The position numbers and the translations under genes are program-made. Of a stretch of 64,000 nt of DNA, positions 1,895 to 29,159 are shown one piece after another. Numbering within the stretch: position 1 is the stretch's first letter; each line of letters starts with the position of its first letter. The notes below the pieces were generated by a model that did not search any database, was not told the DNA's origin, and saw nothing but the letters and a program-made list of their open reading frames with translations. The stretch lies in NCBI GenBank assembly GCA_949296775.1, contig CASFQA010000003.1, positions 47,935 through 111,934 on the forward strand, read 5' to 3'. The DNA comes from an uncultured bacterium (GTDB taxonomy: Bacteria > Bacillota_I > Bacilli_A > RFN20 > CAG-826).

Positions 1895-4291
1895 ATGAAG
1901 AAAAGCAAAGTCGATGATTTGGGGTTAACGATCGAAGAAGAGTTGCCCCTTCTTTACGGTGATGGAAACTGGAATTTCCATGGAGTGCCCTCGTTGGAAT
2001 TGCCGGGGGTCAGCATGCGCGATGGGCCGTTGGGATTAAGAATGTCCGATGTCTCGACCGCCTTAGATTCCAATGTGACCCTTCCCTCGACCTGTTACCC
2101 CTCGCCTTCTTTGTTGGCTTGTTCCTTCGATCCTTCGTTGATGGAGGAAGTCGGGTCATCAATGGGACGGGATTGCCGGCAAAATAAGGTGAATGTCCTT
2201 TTGGCTCCCGCCATCAACATCAAACGCAATCCTCTGTGCGGACGGAATTTCGAATATTACTCGGAAGACCCATATTTGACTGGCAAGCTGGCCAGCGGCT
2301 TCATCAAGGGCCTGCAAAAAGAAGGGGTCGGGGCTTGCCTTAAGCATTTCGCCTGCAACTCGCAGGAAAACGGAAGGATGGTCAATGATTCCATCGTCGA
2401 CGAACGGGCGCTGCATGAGCTTTACCTTAAAGGCTTTGAGATCGCCATCACCGAGGGTCGGCCTTGGACGTTGATGACGAGTTACAACAAAATCAACGGG
2501 ACTTACGTTTCCGATTCCGATTATCTGCTAAAGGATCTGCTTCGGAACGAATGGCATTATAACGGAGTCGTCATGTCGGATTGGGGCGGGACCGCCCATT
2601 TCGTTCGTTCCCATAATTATGGCTTGGATGTCGAGATGCCTTGCTTAATCGACCGAAGCAAGGATCTGCTTCGCGCCATTCGGGCGGGGAAACTCGACCG
2701 CCATGCGGTCAAAACCACCGCCGAGCGGATCATCGCTTTATCAAAACGAGTCAAAATCCAAAGCGATAAACCCTTTGATTATTCCGAGGATAAGGCGGCG
2801 GAAGTGGCTTTGCAAGCCGCGCTTAATTCCCTTGTCTTGCTTCAAAATGATGGCGTCCTTCCCCTAAAAAATGGGCTTGCTGACGCCGCGATCATCGGCT
2901 CGCTGGCCAAGCGGCTGCGGATTACCGGCGGCGGCTCTTCCTGCGTGAGCCCCCTTCACGAGGCCAGCTTCCTTGATTGCTTGAAAGACGATGAGCAGAA
3001 GAACTACGCCCCTGGGTACTCCTTTAATCCTAAAGACGACCAAGAGGCTTTGCGGATCGAGGCGGCTGATTTAGCGGCTAAGAAGCAAACGGTCATCTTG
3101 TTTTTGGGGTTAAGTGACCATAATGAATCGGAAGGGTTCGACCGGGAGACTTTATGTCTTCCCGAAGAGCAGCTTCGCCTTTTCGATTCCCTATACTCGG
3201 TCAATCAAAACATCATCGTCGTCTTAAACGTCGGTGCCCCGGTCGAACTGCCTTTCGCCGATAAATGCCGGGCGATATTGCTTTGCTATTTGCCGGGCCA
3301 AGAAGGGGGCGAGGCCATCCGGCGGATCATCGAGGGCGAGGCTTCCCCCTCGGGCAAACTGGCCGAGACCTGGCCGATTCATCTTTCCGATGTTCCCTCT
3401 TTCGGGTTTTACCCAGGGACGGAAGTCCAATCGATTTACCGGGAATCGATCTATGTCGGCTACCGTTATTATCTTTCCTGCGAGAAGAAGACCCGTTTCC
3501 CCTTTGGGCACGGCTTAAGCTATGGCAAATTCAAATACGGCAAGTTGACTCTTTCTGATAGAACCATCGAAGAGGGGAAGGAAGTCAAGGCCAGCATCGA
3601 GGTCACCAACTCCTCCGACGTCGCTTCCGCCTTGACGGTCATGCTTTTCCTTGAGCCGACCGAAGGCAATGTCTTTAAGGCCAAGCGGACCCTCATCGGG
3701 TTCCAAAAACAAACATTCGGCCCAAAAGAGACCAAAATTTACGAGTTCTCCATCCCATATATGGCTTTATCCCATTACGATATCGGCACCTCCGCTTTCT
3801 TAGTCGAAGGGGGTAAATACCAAATCGAGGCTTGCTCTGATGCTGAAACCGTCGAGTCAAAGGCCTGCCTAAAAGCCATCTCGCCTGATCAATTCGCTTC
3901 CAAGATGATGTCGATGCCGATTTATTATAACGTCCCCAAAGGCGGTTTCCTCCAATACGACAACGATTTCGAGGATTTGCTCGGTCACCATGTCTCCATT
4001 GCCAAGGACCCCCGGAGCCGCCCCTATACTTTGGATTCGACTTTCGGCGATATCTCCTCGACTTGGATTGGGAAGATATTGATGAAGAAGGCTCGAGCCA
4101 GTTTCCCCGTCGATGAGAATAACGGCTTCTCGATAATGGTTAGCCGTTCGATCGCCGCCACGCCGATAAGGAACATCGTGATGAACGGATATAGCCAAAA
4201 ATTCGCTTTGGCGGTGGTCGATTTCGCCAACGGGCATATGCTAAAAGGCTTATTTCATTTGCTGTTCGGGGTTCAGCGACGTGATCTTTGA
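1895..4291 (+). CDS. Glycoside hydrolase family 3 (beta-glucosidase/BglX-like) with C-terminal extension
   Basis: GH3 N-terminal domain motifs KHFACNSQE and VMSDWGG (catalytic Asp). GH3 C-domain and FnIII-like region (FGHGLSYGKF). Confidence 0.85.
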   Translation: MKKSKVDDLGLTIEEELPLLYGDGNWNFHGVPSLELPGVSMRDGPLGLRMSDVSTALDSNVTLPSTCYPSPSLLACSFDPSLMEEVGSSMGRDCRQNKVNVLLAPAINIKRNPLCGRNFEYYSEDPYLTGKLASGFIKGLQKEGVGACLKHFACNSQENGRMVNDSIVDERALHELYLKGFEIAITEGRPWTLMTSYNKINGTYVSDSDYLLKDLLRNEWHYNGVVMSDWGGTAHFVRSHNYGLDVEMPCLIDRSKDLLRAIRAGKLDRHAVKTTAERIIALSKRVKIQSDKPFDYSEDKAAEVALQAALNSLVLLQNDGVLPLKNGLADAAIIGSLAKRLRITGGGSSCVSPLHEASFLDCLKDDEQKNYAPGYSFNPKDDQEALRIEAADLAAKKQTVILFLGLSDHNESEGFDRETLCLPEEQLRLFDSLYSVNQNIIVVLNVGAPVELPFADKCRAILLCYLPGQEGGEAIRRIIEGEASPSGKLAETWPIHLSDVPSFGFYPGTEVQSIYRESIYVGYRYYLSCEKKTRFPFGHGLSYGKFKYGKLTLSDRTIEEGKEVKASIEVTNSSDVASALTVMLFLEPTEGNVFKAKRTLIGFQKQTFGPKETKIYEFSIPYMALSHYDIGTSAFLVEGGKYQIEACSDAETVESKACLKAISPDQFASKMMSMPIYYNVPKGGFLQYDNDFEDLLGHHVSIAKDPRSRPYTLDSTFGDISSTWIGKILMKKARASFPVDENNGFSIMVSRSIAATPIRNIVMNGYSQKFALAVVDFANGHMLKGLFHLLFGVQRRDL

Positions 4292-5436: not shown

Positions 5437-5489
5437 TTTAATAGACGGATAAATATAAAGGTCTTTGCGTGTTGCTTCCGCTTTCTATC

Positions 5490-6161
5490 CTAACGCCAGT
5501 TTCCCAAAGCCCATGCGATGCCTTTGGCCATTCGCCTCTCGCCGTCGACGAAATGATTGCCGTGGTTCATCTCGAATATCGTCTTGATTCCTTTTTCCTC
5601 CAAAAAGCGGCGGAAGGCTAAGGTATTGTCCTCGACCGGCTGGAGAATCCTGTTTTTCGTTTTCTTTTCCTTATCCCCTAAAGACAAGTAGACGGAATTG
5701 ACGGTAGGGGAAAGCCGATTCTTTCTCGCAAAGTCCAGGAAGCCTGGATACCAAAGCGAACCCGAGGCTGATACTAAGGATGCGAAGCGGTCGGTCTTAA
5801 AACCGGCGTATAAAGCGAATAAGCCCCCTAGCGAATAGCCGGCGATGATCCTTACTTTTGGCTTCAGCCCATTATTTCCTTCCAAAGAGGGCAAAAGCTT
5901 CTCCAGCAGATAAGCGAGGTATTCATCGGCTTTCCCTTGGCAGGGGGTGTCGTTTTGGCTGATCCTTTCGATGGGCCAAGGGGTCAGGTCATCGTCCCAA
6001 CGGAGGTTGGAAATGACGACGAGGTTGGCTTCAGGGGCTTGGAGTTTTCCTAATTCTTCCTTGATGGCTGCCCCGTCCTTCATATAGGAATTGAGGACGA
6101 CCAAAGGGAGACTCGGATCGGAACCGAGGAACGTTTCAAGCGTCAAATCATCTCTTTCCAT
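5490..6161 (-). CDS. Esterase family protein (PF00756-like 'putative esterase'/Fes-IroE-like a/b-hydrolase)
   Basis: IIAGYSLGGLFALYA nucleophile elbow. Start overlaps the stop of the upstream adenylation-GNAT gene by 14 nt. Confidence 0.65.
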   Translation of the reverse strand: MERDDLTLETFLGSDPSLPLVVLNSYMKDGAAIKEELGKLQAPEANLVVISNLRWDDDLTPWPIERISQNDTPCQGKADEYLAYLLEKLLPSLEGNNGLKPKVRIIAGYSLGGLFALYAGFKTDRFASLVSASGSLWYPGFLDFARKNRLSPTVNSVYLSLGDKEKKTKNRILQPVEDNTLAFRRFLEEKGIKTIFEMNHGNHFVDGERRMAKGIAWALGNWR

Positions 6162-8028: not shown

Positions 8029-8104
8029 CTTATTATTTTAGACTTTTTTCTCTTGGATAAAAACCTAATGAGAGATATATAGAAATAGGAATAATCAAAC
8101 AGTC

Positions 8105-8146
8105 TTTGAAATAAGTTCAATGTCTCATTGAAGTGACTTTGAAGTA
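8105..8146. repeat. 42-bp perfect direct repeat, copy 1 (second copy at 9669-9710). Contains the palindrome TTCAATGtctCATTGAA at 8116-8132.
   Basis: Sequence tttgaaataagttcaatgtctcattgaagtgactttgaagta is identical at both positions. The preceding 4 nt also match except for one base. Confidence 0.9.
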
Positions 8147-8194
8147 GACATTGAAGTGAGATTGAAGTAAACATTGAAATTACATTGAAAACTT
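8127..8194. repeat. Six degenerate tandem 11-12-bp units (A/T)TTGAAGTnnnC, followed by ACTTGGT x2, upstream of the AlbA_2 gene
   Basis: The six units read attgaagtgac, tttgaagtagac, attgaagtgag, attgaagtaaac, attgaaattac and attgaaaactt. The array is iteron-like and sits in the divergent promoter region. Confidence 0.8.
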
Positions 8195-8229
8195 GGTCGA
8201 ACTTGGTAACATATTACTGAGGTTAATTT

Positions 8230-9666
8230 ATGTTTCTTAAAGATATCTACCCGTTCTTCAAGATAGAGGATAAAACTATTGAGTGTAAGCTTCGTCTTAA
8301 CGACGATTCGTTTTCTTGGCTTAAAACCGTCGCCGGCTTTGCCAATAGCGGAGGCGGGGTCTTATTTGTCGGGGTCAAGCCAGATGATTTCTCTCTCGCG
8401 GGCATGGACTTGTCTACCGCGGATAAGCAAAAGCAGCTTTTTTATCAAAATGTTAAAAACCGCATTCAGGCTGATTTGCATATTTCAACCGATCTTTTGT
8501 CATATGCCGATTCCGGGCATGATCTTTATGTTTTAAAAATCAACGTTGAGGAATCGGACAAGAAGCCGGTTATCCTCATGCATCAGGGTTTTCCGATGGT
8601 TTTCGTCCGAAATGACGGATTCACTTCTCCCGCGACCCAGGAAGAGTTGGTTTTCATGTCGACCCGTCATGAGCAAACTCATTTTGATGAGATGACAACC
8701 GACATTCCCTTCTCTATTGATGACTTTCACGATTTAGATGCTTTTAGGTTTTCTCGGACCAATCAGCATTTGAACGCGAAGGAGTTGGAATCCTTGCCGT
8801 TTTTCGATAAGGATGGGAAGCTTTATCGTGGCTCATCTCTGTTTTCGGATTCCTGCGATGAAGCCAATACTAAGATTGTTTGCTCGGTTTACCCCGGTTT
8901 CACCAGGGGAAGCGATTTGGTCATTGCCAGCAATTCCTTTGTTGGCAACCTAGTGCAAGGGTACGAGTTCATGAACGAGTTTGTTCGCACGAGGATGAAC
9001 CGCGGCTTTTTGAAAACCGGGGATGGCCGGATCGACGTCGATGCCTATCCGGAACGGGCTCTATTCGAGGCGATCATCAACTCTTTGGCCCATCGCGATT
9101 ATTTCATTCCCGGATCGCAGATTTCTTTGGACATGTTCAAAGATCGGCTTGTCATTACTTCTCCTGGCTCTTACTATCAAAGCGGCCCTTTAAAGCCGAC
9201 TTATGATTTAGCGGGTTTCGCTTCCCGACGACGAAATGAATATATTTGCCGTATTTTCTGTTATTGCAAGGCGATGGAAGCCAAAGGGACTGGGTTTGAG
9301 CGGATTGTAAGTGACTACGCTTCCGCCGATGAACGCCATAAGCCTTTCATTTATTCTAAGAACTCTTTATTTTCCATCGTTCTCCCGGATTTGACTTATG
9401 CCGCCGGGGTCAGCATTGAAACGGACTCGATTTCCGTTCTGTCGGAAAATTTGCTGACCTCTAAGTATGATTTGGAGATACTTTCCTATTGCTATGGGGC
9501 GAATCGGGACGTAAAGGATATCGCTAAGCATATCGGCCTCACCAATTCATCCTATCTTCGGAATGTCATTATTGGGAATTTGATCAAAATAGGCTATTTA
9601 GATTCTATAAAAATCGGCAACGCCCAATTCTTCTCATCCAATAAAGAAAAAGTAACTTTGAAATAG
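8230..9666 (+). CDS. AlbA_2 (Schlafen-like, 'divergent AAA/putative DNA-binding') domain protein with C-terminal HATPase_c_4-like region. Often annotated RecG-like transcriptional regulator.
   Basis: The N-terminus (IECKLRLNDDSFSWLKTVAGFANSGGGVLFVGV) matches the AlbA_2/PF04326 signature. The gene is about 40% GC against a surrounding level of about 50%. It is flanked by the 42-bp direct repeats. Confidence 0.6.
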   Translation: MFLKDIYPFFKIEDKTIECKLRLNDDSFSWLKTVAGFANSGGGVLFVGVKPDDFSLAGMDLSTADKQKQLFYQNVKNRIQADLHISTDLLSYADSGHDLYVLKINVEESDKKPVILMHQGFPMVFVRNDGFTSPATQEELVFMSTRHEQTHFDEMTTDIPFSIDDFHDLDAFRFSRTNQHLNAKELESLPFFDKDGKLYRGSSLFSDSCDEANTKIVCSVYPGFTRGSDLVIASNSFVGNLVQGYEFMNEFVRTRMNRGFLKTGDGRIDVDAYPERALFEAIINSLAHRDYFIPGSQISLDMFKDRLVITSPGSYYQSGPLKPTYDLAGFASRRRNEYICRIFCYCKAMEAKGTGFERIVSDYASADERHKPFIYSKNSLFSIVLPDLTYAAGVSIETDSISVLSENLLTSKYDLEILSYCYGANRDVKDIAKHIGLTNSSYLRNVIIGNLIKIGYLDSIKIGNAQFFSSNKEKVTLK

Positions 9667-9668
9667 TG

Positions 9669-9710
9669 TTTGAAATAAGTTCAATGTCTCATTGAAGTGA
9701 CTTTGAAGTA
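9669..9710. repeat. 42-bp perfect direct repeat, copy 2, starting 3 nt after the AlbA_2 stop codon
   Basis: Identical to 8105-8146. Internal palindrome at 9680-9696. Confidence 0.9.
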
Positions 9711-9732
9711 CGCCTATTTGTCGCCGGAAGTT

Positions 9733-9760
9733 AAAAAAACCGACCTTTGATTTCGGTCGG
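9733..9760 (-). terminator. Rho-independent terminator downstream of the minus-strand tRNA-Leu
   Basis: CCGACC/GGTCGG stem with a 9-nt loop. A7 on the plus strand gives a U-run on the minus strand. Confidence 0.55.
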
Positions 9761-9772
9761 ATCTTGCTAATT

Positions 9773-9859
9773 TGGTGCCCGAGGCCGGACTCGAACCGGC
9801 ACGAGTTCATCACTCAGCGGATTTTGAGTCCGCCGCGTCTACCATTCCACCACACGGGC
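9773..9859 (-). tRNA. tRNA-Leu(CAA), class II. Has a U6:U67 mismatch in the acceptor stem.
   Basis: Reverse complement reads GCCCGTG-TG-GTGGAATGGTAGACGCG-GCGGA[CTCAAAA]TCCGC-long variable arm-GCCGGTTCGAGTCCGGC-CTCGGGC-A-CCA. Anticodon CAA. Confidence 0.7.
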
Positions 9860-25218: not shown

Positions 25219-25229
25219 GGAGAGCAAAT

Positions 25230-28200
25230 ATGAAAAAGAACAAATTGCTTATTCTCTCCGCCTCCTGCGCCCTTGGGCTTAGCCTTGTGGGCGCCGGGGT
25301 GGGAATCGCCCTCTCCGAGAAGGCAAACGCCGATACCCCGTCTAGCACGGTGTTCGACGATGTCCTTGGCGAAGACGCCATTGGCCAAAAGGTCAAACTC
25401 GGAGTCGGGGCAGAGACTTCTGACGTTACTCCGGAAATCGAAACCAATATCGGCGTCTTGGCGGTTGATGGCGAGATCGCTGGCACTAAAGACGTCCGGG
25501 TTTATTTCCGGCTCAATTCCATCAATGGAATTCAAACTGCTTCATTGACCCGCTCTGTCAAGACTGCGGCAGGGGAGGTCGTCAAGGAAGCGAGCACCCT
25601 TGACGTCGATTACGTTTATTCCTCCATCAATGGAGCGGAAGAGGCGACCTGGCTTGATATGGCCGCCGAGGAGCCGGCCGTTATCGCAACCGACGAGCTT
25701 CCCGCCGCCCCGTATTACCTCGTCTACACTTTGAAAAACATCCCGGCTGACCATTGGTTTGATCATGTGAACGTGGTCGCCAAGCTTAATGGAACCGAAG
25801 CTTCGCCAACTCAGGAATTTACCTATAATGTCTATGGGGCGATCGGCGATATTGCGGCTGGGGTTATTTTCGCTCCACGTCCTGATGTTGAGGGCGAATA
25901 TTACGTCAAGAGCTCCGGAGCCGCCGAGGCTGTCGTTCCAGAGAATTACTGCGAATACCATGGGGCGATTGCCACTTTGCTTGGCAAAGTGACATGTGTT
26001 GGCGATCCGACCTCAACTTCTGGCGGGTTTGAATATAAATCCTCATTAACTAGTCTGACTTTGCCCGATACCATTGACACATTCAACAAATGGTCTTTTA
26101 GTGGCGTAAGTTCTTTGAAATCTCTTACCCTTCCGCGAGATTTGACTACTGTTTTGCAGAGCTCGTTTAATAACATGGACTCGCTAGAAACCATTGAATA
26201 TAAAGCTCTCAATCTTACAACGGTTGATGACACTTTCGACAATGAGGGCTTGACCGTTAATGTTTCGGGTGCTGTAGAATCGTTGCCAGACGAATTGATT
26301 ACTGGCGAGGCGGAACTGGTCAATTATGAAGGAACGACGGCCGAATGGGAGGCCTTGAAGACCGATACCAACCAAAACAATGGGCTCTTCATCGACAACG
26401 TCATTTGTTCCGACACCGTCACCCATACCGTCACATTCCATCTTGGCGAAGGAACGATCGGCGATTTGACTGGCGATGTTGATTACACCGTCATCGAAGG
26501 CAAGCTGGCTGCTGACCCGGGCGATGCTTTGCTGCTGGGCATGGCGTTCAAGGGCTGGTATATGGATCAAGCCGGCGAAACTCCGTGGAATCCTGAAACT
26601 CCGGTTACCGGGGATTTGGATATCTATGCCGTGTATGAGGAGTTCGGACCGGGCGCATCGGCGAGCAATCCGATTACCCTAATCACTGGCGAAACCTATA
26701 CCGAGAACCTCGTTCCGGGCTATGAAAAAGTCTATCTGACTTACACTCATCCAGCGGATGCGGAAGCTGATTGGCGTTACCTTTACGTCGATGAGTCGGC
26801 CTGCGAGGAAAGTGAGGTTTCCACGGTTACCGCCAGTAACCTCGACGTGGCTATTGATGTCTACAAAGGGTCATTCGAAGGGGAAAAGGAAGAACTTGGC
26901 TCTAATGACTATGTTTTTGACAGCGCCGTTAAACCGATTGGCACTGACGGAGACATACGTTTCTTGGCTGAGCCGGGGCAGACTTATTGCTTCGTAATCG
27001 ATCCTTATTCAAATGATTACTATCAAGACCGAGTTTATTACGGCAGTCTTGCAATGAAATTCCTTGATTTCGAAGAGGATTCAATTGAAGCGGCTGGTCA
27101 GCTTGTCTACGGCGAAACTTCGACCGTTCGCCGCGACGACTATACTAGCTCAGTTATGACGCCTGCCACGGTCAAGGCCTATACCCCGACGGAAACTAAG
27201 GCGGTTGCCCTTAATATCGGCCGCACGAATTACACTTGGGCTGATGTTGAAGTTTACGATATCACCGATCCTGCAAACCCATCCTCTTTAGGGTCTGATT
27301 CGGATACCAGCGATTCGACGATGATTTTGAATCTTGAGGCCAACCATCGTTATATCTTGGTTGTCGACTTGAACGGGGCGACCAGTGATACCGACTATGT
27401 GACTTTGACAATTGGCGAGATTCCGGCGGGCGCCGATATCTCCAACCCGATCGCCATGACTATTGGTACGCCGGTGACCGTTAATTCCATTAATAGCGAA
27501 TACAGTTACTATTCTCTTACCTTGGATGAAGCGGCGGATTTGGCTTTCACCCTTAATGAAGGTTCATCTTCCTACGCCAAATACTTCAAGGTATACGATA
27601 GCACTGGCGAGCAAGTGGCAACCGCCACCGAAACCGGTGTGCAAAGTGGATGGGGTTGGGACACCACTACCACTTATGGCGGTGAGCTGCTTGAGCGTCT
27701 GCACCTGGAGGCTGGATCCTACGTTGTTGAAGTCGGCTATACCAGCAGCCTCTATAGTTACACCGGCTTTACCTTCCAAGTCGATTATGTCCAAGACGGC
27801 GAATACATCGGGCGTCCTGGCATTGCAAATCTCATTGAGGGCACTAACAACCTTAGGTCGACAAAAGATGGTTACTATTATAGTTATTCTCCGTCTGCTG
27901 ATATGGATGGAAAGTATCTTGTGATAGAGCTGCCCGATCTAGAAGGACTGGTCATTGACGTTGTCGATGCTGATGATGAAGTCATTAAGACAGTTTCAGC
28001 AGGCGGTCAAGTCGGCGTCAAATTAACTCAAGGCACAAACGTGATCTTTGTGCTTCGTGGCATTGATAACAATACGGTTTCTGTAAATGCCCAATTCGTC
28101 GATACCTATCAAGATGGACTCACCGAGGATACTGCCTATACTTTGGATAACGCTGGAATATTTGCTTCTTCTGACGGCGGCGACGGTTTTATATTTACTT

Positions 28201-29159
28201 TCTCCGTCGAGGAAACCGGTGATTATGTCTTTTATTCCAACACACCAAGGGATCTCGATTTAAATCGTCTCTATACTATTGAAGGCGGAAATGTCGACTA
28301 CGAGGGATTTAATGACGATAATGGCCGGCATTCTCAAACTGGTAACGAAGATGATTTTGCCGCTGAAGTTAATTTAGTGGCAGGCACTGTCTACTACGCT
28401 CGGATTGCCGGCTATGGTGGGACTGATGGTATGAGTGCTGATCAATTTTCCATTGGTTTGGACAAGATCATACCTGGTTCGTTGCTGTCTTCTCCGATCG
28501 ATAACGAGTTCCTTGGCAAGGATGCAACCACGTTGAGCGGAGGTGAAATTGCTACTTACTACCGTGATACTATGGATCAAGACGGCTGGTATACGATAAA
28601 GATCGATGATACCTCTTCCGGTACCTTGACTGTCTATAGTGGCACAACGGTTCTTGCTACGTTAATGGCTGGCGATTCTTATTTCTTGGAAGCTGAAGCC
28701 AATTCGACCGTGACTGTAAAAGTCGAAGGTGAGATCAGTTTTAGTTCGATTTATTCAACTACGGTTCAAAATGGCAGTAGCCGTGCTAACGCCGTTGAAC
28801 TCCCTTCCGACGGTCGCTTGCCATATACTTATTCTGGTTCTACCCAATCTTCCTATTGGATTAAATTCACCGTTCCGACCGACGGTACGTATGTCTTCTA
28901 TTCGGAAACTAATAAAGATTCAACAGCTTATGCATTCGACCCTTTTGTGAAACACATTTACGAGGGCGATTCGGCGACCGCTTTGGTTGAAGGAAGTAAC
29001 GACGATCCTTATGAAGGACATGGCAATAGTTACGATTCCCACGTTATTGTCGAACTTAAAGCTGGCGTAACCTATTATGCTGAGGTCCAAATGCCTGGTC
29101 CATATGACGATTACGCCGTAGAGTACATACTAGAACCAGTTTCCTCAACTGCCGCATAA
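25230..29159 (+). CDS. Giant surface protein with BspA-type leucine-rich repeats followed by multiple pre-peptidase C-terminal (PPC)-like domains
   Basis: Signal peptide MKKNKLLILSASCALGL. LRR block (SLTSLTLPDTIDTF...SLKSLTLPRDLTTV). At least 5 repeats of the PPC pattern (ANPITLITGETYTENL..., NPIAMTIGTPVTVNSINSEYSYYSLTL..., RANAVELPSDG...YWIKFTVPTDGTYVFYS). AAGGAG RBS before the ATG at 25230. Confidence 0.75.
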   Translation: MKKNKLLILSASCALGLSLVGAGVGIALSEKANADTPSSTVFDDVLGEDAIGQKVKLGVGAETSDVTPEIETNIGVLAVDGEIAGTKDVRVYFRLNSINGIQTASLTRSVKTAAGEVVKEASTLDVDYVYSSINGAEEATWLDMAAEEPAVIATDELPAAPYYLVYTLKNIPADHWFDHVNVVAKLNGTEASPTQEFTYNVYGAIGDIAAGVIFAPRPDVEGEYYVKSSGAAEAVVPENYCEYHGAIATLLGKVTCVGDPTSTSGGFEYKSSLTSLTLPDTIDTFNKWSFSGVSSLKSLTLPRDLTTVLQSSFNNMDSLETIEYKALNLTTVDDTFDNEGLTVNVSGAVESLPDELITGEAELVNYEGTTAEWEALKTDTNQNNGLFIDNVICSDTVTHTVTFHLGEGTIGDLTGDVDYTVIEGKLAADPGDALLLGMAFKGWYMDQAGETPWNPETPVTGDLDIYAVYEEFGPGASASNPITLITGETYTENLVPGYEKVYLTYTHPADAEADWRYLYVDESACEESEVSTVTASNLDVAIDVYKGSFEGEKEELGSNDYVFDSAVKPIGTDGDIRFLAEPGQTYCFVIDPYSNDYYQDRVYYGSLAMKFLDFEEDSIEAAGQLVYGETSTVRRDDYTSSVMTPATVKAYTPTETKAVALNIGRTNYTWADVEVYDITDPANPSSLGSDSDTSDSTMILNLEANHRYILVVDLNGATSDTDYVTLTIGEIPAGADISNPIAMTIGTPVTVNSINSEYSYYSLTLDEAADLAFTLNEGSSSYAKYFKVYDSTGEQVATATETGVQSGWGWDTTTTYGGELLERLHLEAGSYVVEVGYTSSLYSYTGFTFQVDYVQDGEYIGRPGIANLIEGTNNLRSTKDGYYYSYSPSADMDGKYLVIELPDLEGLVIDVVDADDEVIKTVSAGGQVGVKLTQGTNVIFVLRGIDNNTVSVNAQFVDTYQDGLTEDTAYTLDNAGIFASSDGGDGFIFTFSVEETGDYVFYSNTPRDLDLNRLYTIEGGNVDYEGFNDDNGRHSQTGNEDDFAAEVNLVAGTVYYARIAGYGGTDGMSADQFSIGLDKIIPGSLLSSPIDNEFLGKDATTLSGGEIATYYRDTMDQDGWYTIKIDDTSSGTLTVYSGTTVLATLMAGDSYFLEAEANSTVTVKVEGEISFSSIYSTTVQNGSSRANAVELPSDGRLPYTYSGSTQSSYWIKFTVPTDGTYVFYSETNKDSTAYAFDPFVKHIYEGDSATALVEGSNDDPYEGHGNSYDSHVIVELKAGVTYYAEVQMPGPYDDYAVEYILEPVSSTAA

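What the first reader, a model, noticed from the sequence alone, without database searches (positions are those of the whole stretch)
8040..9720. Low-GC cassette: AlbA_2/Schlafen-like ATPase gene bracketed by 42-bp perfect direct repeats carrying a palindromic site, plus an iteron-like tandem array
The 1437-bp gene at 8230-9666 encodes an AlbA_2 (Schlafen-like 'divergent AAA') N-domain protein with a HATPase_c_4-like C-terminus. By eye it is about 40% GC, inside a ~50% GC neighbourhood. It is flanked by an identical 42-bp sequence at 8105-8146, 84 nt upstream of the start, and at 9669-9710, 3 nt after the stop. Each copy contains the perfect palindrome TTCAATG-tct-CATTGAA. Between copy 1 and the start codon lie six degenerate tandem 11-12-bp units (A/T)TTGAAGTnnnC that overlap the end of the repeat. 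Direct repeats bracketing a single AT-rich gene suggest one of three things: a site-specific insertion such as a duplicated target or attachment-like site, a cassette that can be excised or inverted, or duplicated operator arrays for autoregulation. Schlafen/AlbA_2 ATPases are frequent in mobile and defence contexts.
Basis: seen in the sequence. Interest (0 to 1): 0.65.

Follow-up and report, generated by a model that had tools for sequence, protein, structure and literature searches.

The report
Schlafen-ATPase gene bracketed by own operators
The 42-bp repeats and the tandem units are two copies of a phased TTGAAGT binding-site array that goes with this family of bacterial Schlafen-ATPase-HTH genes in every genome examined; it is most likely the protein's own operator, so this is a self-regulating accessory (probably defence-type) gene, not a freshly inserted mobile cassette.

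Summary
There are two perfect 42-bp copies (8105-8146, 9669-9710), a 5.6-unit tandem array (8126-8189), and a 478-aa SLFN_AlbA_2 + GHKL (HATPase_c_4) + winged-helix gene at 44.6% GC in a 52% GC window.

The repeats are not att sites or a target duplication. They are built from TTGAAGT heptads spaced 11/12 bp apart. All 80 family genes examined, from many bacterial phyla, carry at least two phased units just upstream (72 carry four or more). Usually there are exactly four units (11-12-11), interleaved with the -35/-10 of the gene's own promoter. Residue 439, at the start of the predicted recognition helix, co-varies perfectly with heptad bases 1-2 (76 N/D:TT; 4 exceptions coincide).

31 of 77 loci also carry a partial or full array just after the stop codon. 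These copies keep the heptads but lack the promoter hexamers.

A relative at 76% nucleotide identity has the same gene, repeats and neighbours. A more distant syntenic relative lacks both gene and array. Elsewhere, gene-loss alleles keep solo arrays.

Best reading: an autorepressed prokaryotic Schlafen gene with a second, auxiliary operator. This is inferred, not tested. I found no report of this cis-element.

The parts
8105..8146 (+). Upstream copy of the 42-bp direct repeat. It is the 5' part of the operator: heptad TTGAAAT (8106-8112), inverted heptad AGTTCAA (8114-8120), then heptads TTGAAGT at 8128 and 8139. The palindrome TTCAATGtctCATTGAA (8116-8132) is the inverted heptad plus the first direct heptad.
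8126..8189 (+). Phased heptad array. TTGAAGT occurs at 8128, 8139, 8151 and 8162, TTGAAAT at 8174 and TTGAAA at 8185, with spacing alternating between 11 and 12 bp. This is the family-wide cis-element and the predicted binding site of the protein's winged helix.
8185..8212 (+). Predicted promoter of the gene: -35 TTGAAA (the last heptad-like unit), a 16-bp spacer ending in TG, and -10 TAACAT. An RBS GAGG lies at 8219-8222.
   Evidence: sequence
8230..9666 (+). Gene for a 478-aa prokaryotic Schlafen protein. Its parts are a SLFN_AlbA_2 nuclease-type domain (E13, E18, K20 conserved), a GHKL ATPase (E280/N284/D290, G353-T-G355) and a C-terminal winged helix (helices 414-423, 428-435, 441-453; wing 457-470).
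9658..9710 (+). Downstream, promoter-less partial operator. It comprises heptad TTGAAAT at 9658-9664 (overlapping the TAG stop), then the second 42-bp repeat copy (9669-9710) with TTGAAAT 9670-9676, inverted AGTTCAA 9678-9684, and TTGAAGT at 9692 and 9703.
8077..8104 (+). Weak extension of the repeat upstream of copy 1. It resembles the last 26 nt of the ORF plus the stop (9641-9668). It may be a decayed remnant of a duplicated gene 3' end, or it may be chance in AT-rich DNA.
9730..9750 (.). Hairpin CCGACC-N9-GGTCGG, preceded by an A-run on the + strand. This makes it an intrinsic terminator for the minus-strand tRNA-Leu. It is the only hairpin between the gene and the tRNA. It is context, not part of the repeat.
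9773..9859 (-). tRNA-Leu(CAA), a conserved neighbour. It marks a variable spot: in the more distant relative L221, the DNA between this tRNA and the AMP-binding/GNAT gene is different and lacks the cassette.

Best explanation
The region is a self-contained accessory gene module. The gene encodes a prokaryotic Schlafen protein of the most common architecture: a Schlafen/AlbA_2 nuclease-type domain, a GHKL ATPase and a C-terminal winged helix-turn-helix ('Schlatpase-HTH', or pSlfn HisKinase-HTH).

The 'iteron-like' units and the 42-bp repeats are the protein's own operator. This is an array of TTGAAGT heptads on one face of the helix (11/12-bp spacing), preceded by an inverted heptad. The array overlaps the gene's promoter.

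Inferred steps, none of them tested:
- The winged helix reads one heptad per subunit.
- An ATP-dependent oligomer, probably a tetramer as in the related SLFN-pAgo, occupies four heptads.
- Occupancy shuts off the gene's own transcription, keeping a potentially toxic tRNase-type effector at a low, buffered level.
- The second 42-bp copy after the stop codon is a promoter-less auxiliary operator. It either loops to the promoter array to tighten repression or blocks transcription across the 3' end of the gene.

The module was acquired horizontally, before the window's organism split from its closest relative, at a variable spot next to tRNA-Leu(CAA). It has been inherited vertically since.
For: Shown by computation:
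- All 80 family genes (37-100% identical to the window protein; labelled Bacilli, Clostridia, Bacteroidales, Treponema, Elusimicrobiaceae, Selenomonas, Coriobacteriales, Flexilinea) have at least 2 phased heptads just upstream. 72 have 4 or more, and the mode is exactly 4 units spaced 11-12-11. The last unit ends a median of 26 bp before the ATG. Control windows hold 0-1 unit in 319 of 320 cases.
- In the first 100 loci plus the window, strict arrays occur only next to family genes and on the gene's strand.
- In 39 loci the -10 starts at the last base of the last heptad, with a TTGACA-like -35 in the 12-bp spacer and a 17-bp promoter spacer. In about 15 more loci the promoter is shifted by whole units. 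In the window the last unit is itself the -35.
- The AlphaFold model (pLDDT 84) has a C-terminal winged helix that superposes on ArsR/SmtB repressors at about 1.9 Å.
- Residue 439, at the N-cap of the recognition helix, is N or D in the 76 loci whose heptads begin TT. It is A, V, Y or P in exactly the 4 loci whose heptads begin TA, TA, AT or GT (Fisher p = 6e-7; at least 3 independent lineages).
- Between the window and its relative L003, the 42-bp core is 41/42 identical. The surrounding non-array intergenic DNA is only 45-58% identical, and the coding DNA about 76%.
- 31 of 77 loci have a downstream array. The 14 that have four units keep the heptads and the 11-12-11 phasing, but all score lower for the in-phase promoter (mean 5.9 versus 9.9 of 12; p = 9e-4).
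- Loci with 4 or fewer upstream units usually have a downstream array (27 of 41). Loci with 5 or more rarely do (3 of 35; p = 3e-7).
- The variant-heptad locus L043 uses TAGAAGT in both copies.

From the literature:
- The SLFN+GHKL supradomain tetramerises on ATP and cleaves tRNA in RzAgo. More than 90% of Schlatpase tails are HTH (bioRxiv 10.64898/2026.05.29.728809).
- HisKinase-HTH fusions make up 19% of prokaryotic Schlafens (PMC13056530).
Against: - There is no binding, expression or looping experiment. Repression rather than activation is inferred only from the overlap with the -35 and spacer.
- The covariation and the two Fisher tests are not corrected for phylogeny.
- The downstream copy is absent from about 60% of loci, so it is dispensable. 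It could be a by-product of duplication.
- The two copies in a locus are often more alike than orthologous copies in related genomes. In one Bacteroidales clade the repeat includes 37-132 nt of the gene's 3' end. Both point to recurrent duplication or gene conversion as well as, or instead of, selection for binding.
- Solo arrays persist after gene loss.
- In the window and in L003 the promoter geometry differs from the family norm.
- The taxon labels come from metagenome bins.
Confidence: 0.68

Rival explanations
1. The direct repeats are mainly products and substrates of recombination. Unequal crossing-over or slippage between heptad arrays duplicates the 'gene 3' end + array' junction, homogenises the two copies, and allows the gene to be amplified or deleted (an on/off accessory gene). 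The downstream copy would then have no regulatory role of its own.
For: - Within-locus copies are as similar as, or more similar than, orthologous copies. For example, L020 is 43/44 within the locus against 37/44 to an 80%-identical relative, and L033 is 65/66 against 45/50.
- The repeat reaches 90-132 nt into the coding 3' end in L035 and L038.
- Unit number is polymorphic between samples of one species: 4 versus 7 units in L315/L241 versus L242/L303.
- Presence/absence alleles with 94-100% identical flanks exist in four species groups. 42 of 123 strict arrays in metagenome contigs have no gene remnant, and 12 sit next to fragmented genes.
Against: - The four deletion junctions examined differ from one another. 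None is a clean array-by-array crossover. One fuses the array to the last 33 codons, and the occupied alleles L044 and L081 have no downstream array.
- Downstream copies lose the promoter hexamers specifically while keeping the heptads and their phasing.
- The presence of a downstream array is complementary to the number of upstream units. Both observations are hard to explain without selection on binding.
- The 42-bp core is conserved between species far above the neighbouring intergenic DNA.
Confidence: 0.2
2. The repeats are attL/attR-like sites or a long target duplication left by site-specific insertion of a mobile single-gene cassette next to the tRNA gene.
For: - A low-GC gene sits next to the 3' end of tRNA-Leu.
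- The gene family is patchily distributed across phyla. Members at 74-80% identity occur in bins labelled as different phyla.
- A syntenic relative lacks the gene.
- Some homologues lie beside recombinase genes or gene fragments on plasmids.
Against: - No recombinase gene is called in or beside the cassette.
- The repeat does not overlap the tRNA.
- The gene-less relative L221 has no copy of the repeat, where an att model predicts one.
- Repeat length varies from 19 to 187 nt, and the repeat is always made of operator heptads.
- An identical protein (P0046) sits in the same context in all 10 places shown, out of 24 contigs read.
- Gene and neighbours are equally diverged from the relative.
Confidence: 0.04
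3. The array and palindrome form an iteron-type origin or nick site, and the protein acts as an initiator or nickase on a small rolling-circle or plasmid-like element. The 1.04-unit-length arrangement would be a relic of a concatemer.
For: - The architecture (an inverted repeat plus four helically phased direct repeats beside a gene for a winged-helix protein) resembles iteron plasmids.
- The repeat unit runs from the gene's stop codon into the array, as it would in a head-to-tail concatemer.
- 16 of the 120 top homologues have a longest contig of 1521-1598 bp.
Against: - The short contigs are exactly what a k=31 assembler produces between two repeats of at least 31 bp. L002 equals window 8117-9698, and L010 fits the 46-bp repeat of L007.
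- The loci are chromosomal and stable.
- There is no Rep or HUH domain.
- The core promoter is interleaved with the array.
- No family gene was found on the viral contigs that carry similar arrays.
Confidence: 0.03
4. The repeats act in RNA, as 5' and 3' UTR elements bound by the Schlafen/Alba-like RNA-binding domain or forming a structure.
For: Schlafen domains bind and cleave RNA. The downstream copy would be transcribed as a 3' UTR.
Against: - In most loci the -10 lies at or after the last heptad, so the upstream array is not transcribed from the gene's own promoter.
- Nothing but the tRNA matches Rfam.
- The 3' region folds no better than shuffled sequence (z = -0.5).
- The covarying residue lies in the DNA-type winged helix.
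Confidence: 0.04

Closest known systems
Prokaryotic Schlafen proteins of the HisKinase(GHKL)-HTH class ('Schlatpase' supradomain with an HTH tail), described in PMC13056530 and bioRxiv 10.64898/2026.05.29.728809
   Same: The domain order is the same: SLFN_AlbA_2, then HATPase_c_4/GHKL, then a short C-terminal HTH. The N-terminal E-x4-E/D acidic pair is conserved; it is the pair mutated in the nuclease-dead RorSlfn5 (E15A/D20A) and CbCash (E17Q/D22N). The GHKL N-box and G-box are also conserved.
   Different: In those papers the fused domains are treated as sensors. In the passages I searched they report no DNA site for the HTH, no autoregulation and no flanking repeats. Here, a specific heptad array is tied to one subfamily. 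Defence activity of this subfamily is untested.
Phage lambda immunity region, where cI is bracketed by the OL and OR operator triplets and long-range CI looping sharpens autoregulation. Other auxiliary-operator loops (lac, gal, deo) are comparable.
   Same: A regulator gene lies between two arrays of its own binding sites about 1.5-2.4 kb apart. One array overlaps the gene's promoter, and the other is remote.
   Different: The sites here are direct heptads in helical phase, not 17-bp dyads. The second array carries no promoter. The protein also contains nuclease and ATPase domains. Looping is inferred only.
Iteron plasmids (pPS10 RepA, F RepE, P1 RepA), in which a winged-helix initiator binds four or five phased direct repeats and an inverted repeat at its own promoter, and arrays pair by handcuffing
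   Same: There is an inverted repeat plus about four direct repeats on one helical face, next to the gene for a winged-helix protein. There are two arrays that could pair.
   Different: There is no Rep homology. The loci are chromosomal and single-copy. The units are 7 bp at an 11/12-bp period rather than 17-22-bp iterons. The promoter is interleaved with the array. There is no evidence of replication.
PhoB/OmpR-type winged-helix regulators on tandem 7-bp repeats with an 11-bp period (pho boxes) at the -35
   Same: Winged-helix domains bind head-to-tail on 7-bp direct repeats spaced one helical turn apart, overlapping the -35 region.
   Different: Pho boxes replace a missing -35 and activate transcription. 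Here good -35 and -10 hexamers sit inside the array, which suggests occlusion. The oligomerisation module is a GHKL ATPase, not a receiver domain.
Self-repressing toxin or defence modules: controller C proteins and C-boxes of restriction-modification systems, and type II antitoxin operators
   Same: A potentially harmful gene is kept low by a DNA-binding function that binds its own promoter.
   Different: Effector and repressor are one polypeptide here. The operator is a four- to ten-unit direct-repeat array, sometimes duplicated at the 3' end of the gene.

Membership tests
Prokaryotic Schlafen, GHKL-HTH class (Schlatpase-HTH / pSlfn HisKinase-HTH) | N-terminal SLFN_AlbA_2 (PF04326) domain | tested here: met
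   Pfam hit at residues 13-132, E 2.3e-14, above the gathering score. The fold matches SLFN5/11/12/13/14 N-domains.
Prokaryotic Schlafen, GHKL-HTH class (Schlatpase-HTH / pSlfn HisKinase-HTH) | Conserved acidic catalytic pair at the start of the Schlafen domain (E-x4-E/D) | tested here: met
   E13 is present in 80/80 members, E18 in 79/80 (one D) and K20 in 80/80. The correspondence to RorSlfn5 E15/D20 and CbCash E17/D22 is by position in the motif, not by structural superposition.
Prokaryotic Schlafen, GHKL-HTH class (Schlatpase-HTH / pSlfn HisKinase-HTH) | GHKL-type ATPase domain (PF13749) with N-box and G-box | tested here: met
   HATPase_c_4 hit at 295-385, E 8.7e-16. E280, N284 and G353-x-G355 are invariant and D290 is present in 79/80. 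The full-length fold matches 3LMM.
Prokaryotic Schlafen, GHKL-HTH class (Schlatpase-HTH / pSlfn HisKinase-HTH) | Short C-terminal helix-turn-helix domain | tested here: met
   There is no Pfam hit. The model shows three helices plus a beta-hairpin wing at 414-470, superposing on ArsR/SmtB/CzrA at 1.7-2.0 Å over about 62 residues.
Prokaryotic Schlafen, GHKL-HTH class (Schlatpase-HTH / pSlfn HisKinase-HTH) | tRNA cleavage, ATP-driven tetramerisation and anti-phage defence | not testable with these tools
   These are known only for other Schlafen fusions (RzAgo, RorSlfn5, Cash). PADLOC gives only weak domain-level hits to pAgo-associated proteins.
Autoregulated gene with a promoter operator plus an auxiliary operator | Repeated sites overlapping the core promoter of the regulator's own gene | tested here: met
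   In silico only. In 39 of the 69 loci with a promoter match of at least 9/12, the -10 sits at position -1 from the last heptad; about 15 more are shifted by whole units. The window promoter lies at 8185-8212.
Autoregulated gene with a promoter operator plus an auxiliary operator | The protein recognises the sites | tested here: inconclusive
   Residue 439 co-varies perfectly with heptad bases 1-2 (76 + 4, p = 6e-7).
Autoregulated gene with a promoter operator plus an auxiliary operator | The second site is functional (looping or roadblock) | not testable with these tools
   Indirect evidence only: the downstream copies are promoter-less but keep their phasing, and their presence is complementary to the upstream unit number.
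Integrated mobile element flanked by att sites or a target duplication | A recombinase or transposase gene in or beside the element | tested here: not met
   The cassette holds one gene. Its neighbours are an AMP-binding/GNAT enzyme, a tRNA and a P-type ATPase.
Integrated mobile element flanked by att sites or a target duplication | The empty site carries a single copy of the repeat | tested here: not met
   The syntenic relative L221 lacks the gene and has no match to the repeat with up to 3 mismatches.
Integrated mobile element flanked by att sites or a target duplication | The same element occurs at different sites in close relatives | tested here: not met
   The window and L003-L006/L011 share the locus. 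P0046 has the same neighbours in all 10 places shown, out of 24 contigs read.
Generic intergenic repeat (REP/MITE-like) | Many dispersed copies unrelated to one gene | tested here: not met
   There are only two copies in the 64-kb window. Arrays in the first 100 loci lie only beside family genes. In metagenome contigs, 74 of 116 arrays with room to judge lie beside the gene or a recognisable remnant; the rest are solo arrays, which in the four species groups examined correspond to gene-loss alleles.
Iteron-type replicon | A Rep initiator and an extrachromosomal or multicopy state | tested here: not met
   There is no Rep or HUH domain. The source contigs are 137-372 kb long and syntenic. Read coverage could not be tested.

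The most novel reading that the evidence does not exclude
The heptad arrays may be more than an operator. They could be a general, subfamily-specific DNA 'dock' for the commonest class of prokaryotic Schlafens.

In this reading, an ATP-driven tetramer is held on four heptads, and handcuffed to a second array at the other end of its own gene. This would keep the gene silent and the tRNase inactive. Release from DNA on a trigger would both derepress and arm the effector. The same repeats would make the gene easy to amplify or lose.

Two points support generality. Six of eight distant subfamily members examined carry their own, different two- to four-fold repeats just upstream of the ATG. The modal unit number is four.
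Probability: 0.15. Interest if true: 0.8.

Novelty: new variant of a known kind. Interest (0 to 1): 0.58.

Why it matters
Schlafen-GHKL-HTH proteins are the largest class of bacterial Schlafens. According to the two papers consulted, they number tens of thousands of proteins. Related Schlafen fusions have just been shown to be anti-phage tRNases, but the role of the HTH tail is unknown.

This analysis gives the HTH tail a concrete, testable target. The target is a phased TTGAAGT array interleaved with the gene's own promoter, with a predicted specificity-determining residue (N/D439). The usual four-site layout matches the tetramer seen in a related protein.

The analysis also explains three things:
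- why these genes break short-read assemblies into contigs of about 1.5 kb;
- why solo arrays mark places where the gene has been lost;
- where to start experiments, namely a cultured strain (Butyrivibrio proteoclasticus B316, WP_013282674.1).

The kind of mechanism, autorepression by direct-repeat operators, is ordinary. The association itself and the bracketing second array appear to be new.

Tried and rejected
- **Viral-contig scan for TTGAAGT arrays.** The hits are mostly 12-nt-period coding repeats in giant-virus contigs. A few are phage arrays with no family gene. The scan says nothing about this family.
- **First metagenome scan, using the neighbouring AMP-binding/GNAT protein, to find empty sites.** It found nothing. 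I replaced it with a protein search plus a context look-up, which found L221.
- **Full-text search for 'TTGAAGT'.** It returned 9,283 papers, mostly primer lists, and was useless.
- **EarA, the archaeal archaellum regulator, recalled as a possible relative.** The paper mentions no Schlafen, AlbA or HATPase domain. I dropped the lead without resolving it.
- **NCBIfam.** No hit.
- **Pfam on the C-terminal 84 residues.** No HTH family. The winged helix is seen only in the structure model.
- **Rfam and RNA folding of the 3' copy.** Nothing.
- **Ungapped identity profile upstream of the repeat, to look for decayed remnants of the gene's 3' end.** The signal fades within about 40 nt, and the analysis is muddied by the choice of anchor. 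Clear extension into coding sequence is limited to one Bacteroidales clade.
- **Plasmid search.** There were only six hits. The 40%-identical Butyrivibrio gene has the array. The distant homologues examined (25-29% identical) show no clear upstream repeats.
- **Single TTGAAGT heptads elsewhere in the window (16 found versus 6.5 expected).** None are phased, so I attribute them to coding bias.
Full report
**1. Observation**

TTTGAAATAAGTTCAATGTCTCATTGAAGTGACTTTGAAGTA occurs at 8105-8146 and 9669-9710 and nowhere else in the window, even with three mismatches allowed; chance expectation is 0. Each copy contains the palindrome TTCAATGtctCATTGAA. Tandem Repeats Finder reports 5.6 copies of an 11-nt unit, or equivalently a 23-nt double unit, at 8126-8189.

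The ORF at 8230-9666 encodes a 478-aa protein with SLFN_AlbA_2 and HATPase_c_4 domains. The gene is 44.6% GC in a 52.3% GC window. That is the lowest GC among the 28 ORFs of at least 250 aa. Its GC3 of 0.52 is only about 1.6 sd below the mean.

The repeat similarity also extends weakly, to 70 nt at 87%, into the last codons of the ORF.

**2. What the repeats are made of**

Both repeat copies, and the tandem units between copy 1 and the gene, are built from one heptad, TTGAAGT (or TTGAAAT). The heptads are spaced alternately 11 and 12 bp apart and are preceded by one inverted heptad.

**3. The closest relative**

The protein is encoded on a 137-kb metagenome scaffold. A relative with 80% amino-acid identity lies at the same locus in four further assemblies and in a GTDB genome labelled 'uncultured Bacilli bacterium'. 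The gene order there is AMP-binding/GNAT enzyme, this gene, tRNA-Leu, a 216-aa ORF, then a P-type ATPase. That relative has both repeat copies: seven heptads upstream, and the palindrome plus three heptads downstream.

Nucleotide identity between the two genomes is:
- 76% for this gene;
- 77% for each of the two flanking genes compared (the AMP-binding/GNAT enzyme and the P-type ATPase);
- 45-58% for the non-array intergenic DNA;
- 41/42 for the repeat core.

So the gene has been inherited together with its neighbours since the two lineages split. The array is under strong constraint.

A more distant relative (L221; neighbour protein 54% identical) has the same gene order, including tRNA-Leu(CAA). 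It has about 900 bp of different DNA in place of the cassette and no trace of the repeat. The cassette therefore sits in a variable spot beside the tRNA, but the repeat is not a duplicated target.

**4. The family-wide picture**

A scan of one genome per GTDB species with a family alignment returned 80 loci. Their bins are labelled Bacilli/Mollicutes, Clostridia, Lachnospiraceae, Bacteroidales, Treponema, Elusimicrobiaceae, Selenomonas, Coriobacteriales and Flexilinea.

- All 80 family genes analysed (37-100% identical to the window protein) have at least two phased heptads immediately upstream, on the gene's strand.
- 72 of the 80 have at least four. The commonest form (38 loci) has exactly four, spaced 11-12-11.
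- The last heptad ends a median of 26 bp before the ATG.
- Of 320 control windows, 319 have 0 or 1 heptad.
- In the first 100 loci plus the window, strict arrays (three heptads at 11-12 bp) occur only directly upstream or downstream of family genes.

**5. Promoter register**

In 69 of 75 loci a sigma-70-like promoter matches at least 9 of 12 positions. In 39 of these the -10 begins at the last base of the final heptad, a TTGACA-, TTGACT- or TAGACA-type -35 sits in the 12-bp spacer, and the promoter spacer is exactly 17 bp. About 15 more are shifted by one or two whole units.

The operator and the core promoter are thus interleaved. This predicts repression when the array is occupied, and it means the upstream array is not transcribed from the gene's own promoter. 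In the window the geometry differs slightly: the last heptad-like unit, TTGAAA at 8185-8190, is the -35, followed by 16 bp ending in TG and then TAACAT.

**6. The protein and its likely read-out of the heptad**

The AlphaFold model (mean pLDDT 84) ends in three helices and a beta-hairpin wing at residues 414-470. This segment superposes on ArsR/SmtB-type repressors at 1.7-2.0 Å. The N-domain matches mammalian Schlafen nuclease domains. The whole chain matches the uncharacterised protein 3LMM.

In an alignment of the 80 proteins, residue 439, at the N-cap of the third (recognition) helix, is N or D in the 76 loci whose heptads begin TT. The four exceptions coincide exactly:
- L043 has A439 and TAGAAGT.
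- L039b has V439 and TAGAAGT.
- L049 has Y439 and ATGAAGT.
- L077 has P439 and GTGAAGT.

Fisher p is 6e-7, and the four proteins are 37-61% identical to one another. This is the strongest evidence that the winged helix reads the heptad. It is not corrected for phylogeny.

S440 (80/80) and R444 (78/80) in the same helix are invariant or nearly so. So are the Schlafen E13/E18/K20 motif and the GHKL N- and G-boxes, so the nuclease and ATPase are probably active.

**7. The downstream copy**

31 of 77 loci have at least two phased heptads starting 0-60 nt after the stop codon. The exact shared stretches are 19-81 nt, against at most 14 nt in controls. Fourteen loci have a full four-unit array with 11-12-11 spacing. 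In all 14 the in-phase promoter score is lower than upstream (mean 5.9 versus 9.9 of 12; p = 9e-4). The differences fall on the -35 and -10 positions, while the heptads are kept.

Loci with four or fewer upstream units usually have a downstream array (27 of 41). Loci with five to ten upstream units rarely do (3 of 35; p = 3e-7, uncorrected).

I read this as two alternative ways of providing more than four sites. On that reading the second 42-bp copy in the window is an auxiliary, promoter-less operator. Whether it loops to the promoter array or acts as a roadblock cannot be decided here.

**8. Signs of recombination and gene loss**

The two copies in a locus are often more alike than orthologous copies in the nearest relatives. 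In one Bacteroidales clade the repeat includes 37-132 nt of the gene's 3' end.

- 38 lie beside an intact gene.
- 24 lie beside a gene cut by the contig end.
- 12 lie beside a fragmented gene.
- 42 have no remnant within 1.9 kb.
- 7 are at contig ends.

For four species groups I found both occupied and gene-less alleles with 94-100% identical flanks. The junctions differ from one another. One fuses the array to the last 33 codons, and others remove roughly the ORF. None is a clean array-by-array crossover. Unit number also varies between samples, 4 versus 7.

So the gene is a frequently lost accessory gene, and the arrays are recombination-prone. This does not explain the promoter-less pattern or the complementarity described in section 7.

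An identical protein (P0046) has the same neighbours in all 10 places shown, out of 24 contigs read. No recombinase gene is called next to the window's cassette. Active mobility is therefore not supported.

**9. Assembly side-effect**

The 1582-bp Logan contig L002 equals window 8117-9698. That is what a k=31 graph yields between two 42-bp repeats. L010 (1545 bp) fits the 46-bp repeat of L007 in the same way. The value k=31 is my own knowledge of Logan. Sixteen of the 120 best homologues have a longest contig of 1521-1598 bp. This is an independent hint that flanking repeats of at least 31 bp are common in the family.

**10. Comparison with the literature**

Two recent papers describe this architecture:
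- SLFN + GHKL is named the 'Schlatpase' supradomain. It is present in 58.6% of 103,533 prokaryotic Schlafen proteins. More than 90% of the tails have an HTH, and ATP drives tetramerisation and tRNA cleavage in RzAgo (bioRxiv 10.64898/2026.05.29.728809).
- HisKinase and HisKinase-HTH fusions make up 34% and 19% of prokaryotic Schlafens. The phage defence characterised in detail there is that of a DUF262-Schlafen fusion, RorSlfn5 (PMC13056530).

In the passages I searched, neither paper reports a DNA target of the HTH, autoregulation or flanking repeats. Further searches found nothing either. The modal four-heptad array fits a tetramer, but that link is an inference.

**11. Generality (partly followed up)**

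Distant Schlafen-GHKL-HTH paralogues carry different repeats at the same position, just upstream of the ATG:
- 4x ATTAGATAGA in L007 (21-nt period);
- 4x TCCGAGAGA(T/A)TA in the L034 paralogue;
- 2x TTCCGAAAGATTATTT in L347;
- 3.2x a 20-nt unit in L348;
- 4-5x TAATGAAT in L349;
- two 31-bp palindromes in L351.

L350 is ambiguous and L345 has none. No matched controls were run.

**12. Verdict**

The insertion/att reading is rejected, and the 'duplicated operator' reading is favoured.

The gene family is known, and autorepression through direct-repeat operators is a known kind of mechanism. What appears to be new is:
- the specific, deeply conserved heptad array;
- its interleaving with the promoter;
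- the specificity residue;
- the bracketing promoter-less copy.

I rate interest as moderate.

Noticed in passing
L007:18821-18899; L034:3722-3820 (minus strand, upstream of the paralogue at 2294-3721); L347, L348, L349 and L351, positions about 470-700: Other Schlafen-GHKL-HTH subfamilies, 20-60% identical to one another, carry their own, different two- to four-fold repeats ending about 15-35 bp before the ATG. Examples are 4x ATTAGATAGA, 4x TCCGAGAGA(T/A)TA, 3.2x ATTGGAAGAATAATTGATTT, 4-5x TAATGAAT and two 31-bp palindromes. This suggests subfamily-specific self-operators are general in this protein class. L350 is ambiguous and L345 has none.
   Followed up: partly
L249/L314 vs L044; L332/L308/L318 vs L081/L064/L246/L310; L327 vs L329/L313/L236/L339; L286 and the L239 group vs L232/L292: Within single species (flanks 94-100% identical) there are alleles with the gene and alleles where it is deleted but the heptad array remains. 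In one case the array is fused to the last 33 codons. Twelve further arrays lie beside frameshifted or internally deleted genes. The family is being lost often.
   Followed up: partly
L242 and L303 vs L315, L241 and L320: The same solo array has 7 heptads in some samples and 4 in others. This is a unit-number polymorphism of the kind slippage or unequal exchange would produce.
   Followed up: no
L343:1402-1480 (Butyrivibrio proteoclasticus B316 plasmid pCY360, NC_014389.1): A cultured, fully sequenced strain carries a 40%-identical family gene (WP_013282674.1, annotated 'ATP-binding protein') with a seven-unit TTGAAGT array, next to a gene annotated as a tyrosine recombinase (567 bp, so possibly truncated). 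It is a practical system for experiments.
   Followed up: partly
window 9773-9859 and 9730-9750: The neighbour of this Schlafen-type (tRNase family) gene is tRNA-Leu(CAA), a type II tRNA of the class cleaved by mammalian SLFN11 (from my own knowledge). The tRNA's terminator hairpin faces the cassette. Other family loci have no tRNA neighbour, so this is probably coincidence.
   Followed up: partly
L221:7100-8000: In the gene-less syntenic relative, the space between tRNA-Leu(CAA) and the AMP-binding/GNAT gene holds an ORF of about 100 aa on the + strand (from about 7680) that resembles small monooxygenase-like proteins by eye. The assembly also calls a 176-aa ORF on the minus strand with no Pfam hit. 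The spot beside this tRNA is variable.
   Followed up: no
L062: about 3751-3857 and 5481-5588: In a Treponema genome the family gene is flanked by an unrelated 106-nt GC-rich direct repeat (96% identical), in addition to its heptad array. This may be a dispersed intergenic repeat of that genome.
   Followed up: no
L112/L185, L146/L165, L200 (IMG/VR contigs): A few viral contigs carry three or four TTGAAGT heptads at 11-bp spacing, ending in an inverted heptad and so resembling the family operator. No family gene lies nearby.
   Followed up: no
window 25229-29159 (+): A 1310-aa ORF has the lowest GC3 in the window (0.50). It contains three of the isolated TTGAAGT heptads (27247, 27583, 27727). 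It may be another foreign gene.
   Followed up: no
window, whole: Isolated TTGAAGT heptads outside the cassette number 16, against 6.5 expected from dinucleotide shuffles. None are in 11/12-bp phase, so the excess is probably codon bias.
   Followed up: partly
L013:2340-2540: One family locus has two complete heptad arrays in tandem upstream of the gene, each preceded by an inverted heptad, and no downstream array.
   Followed up: no
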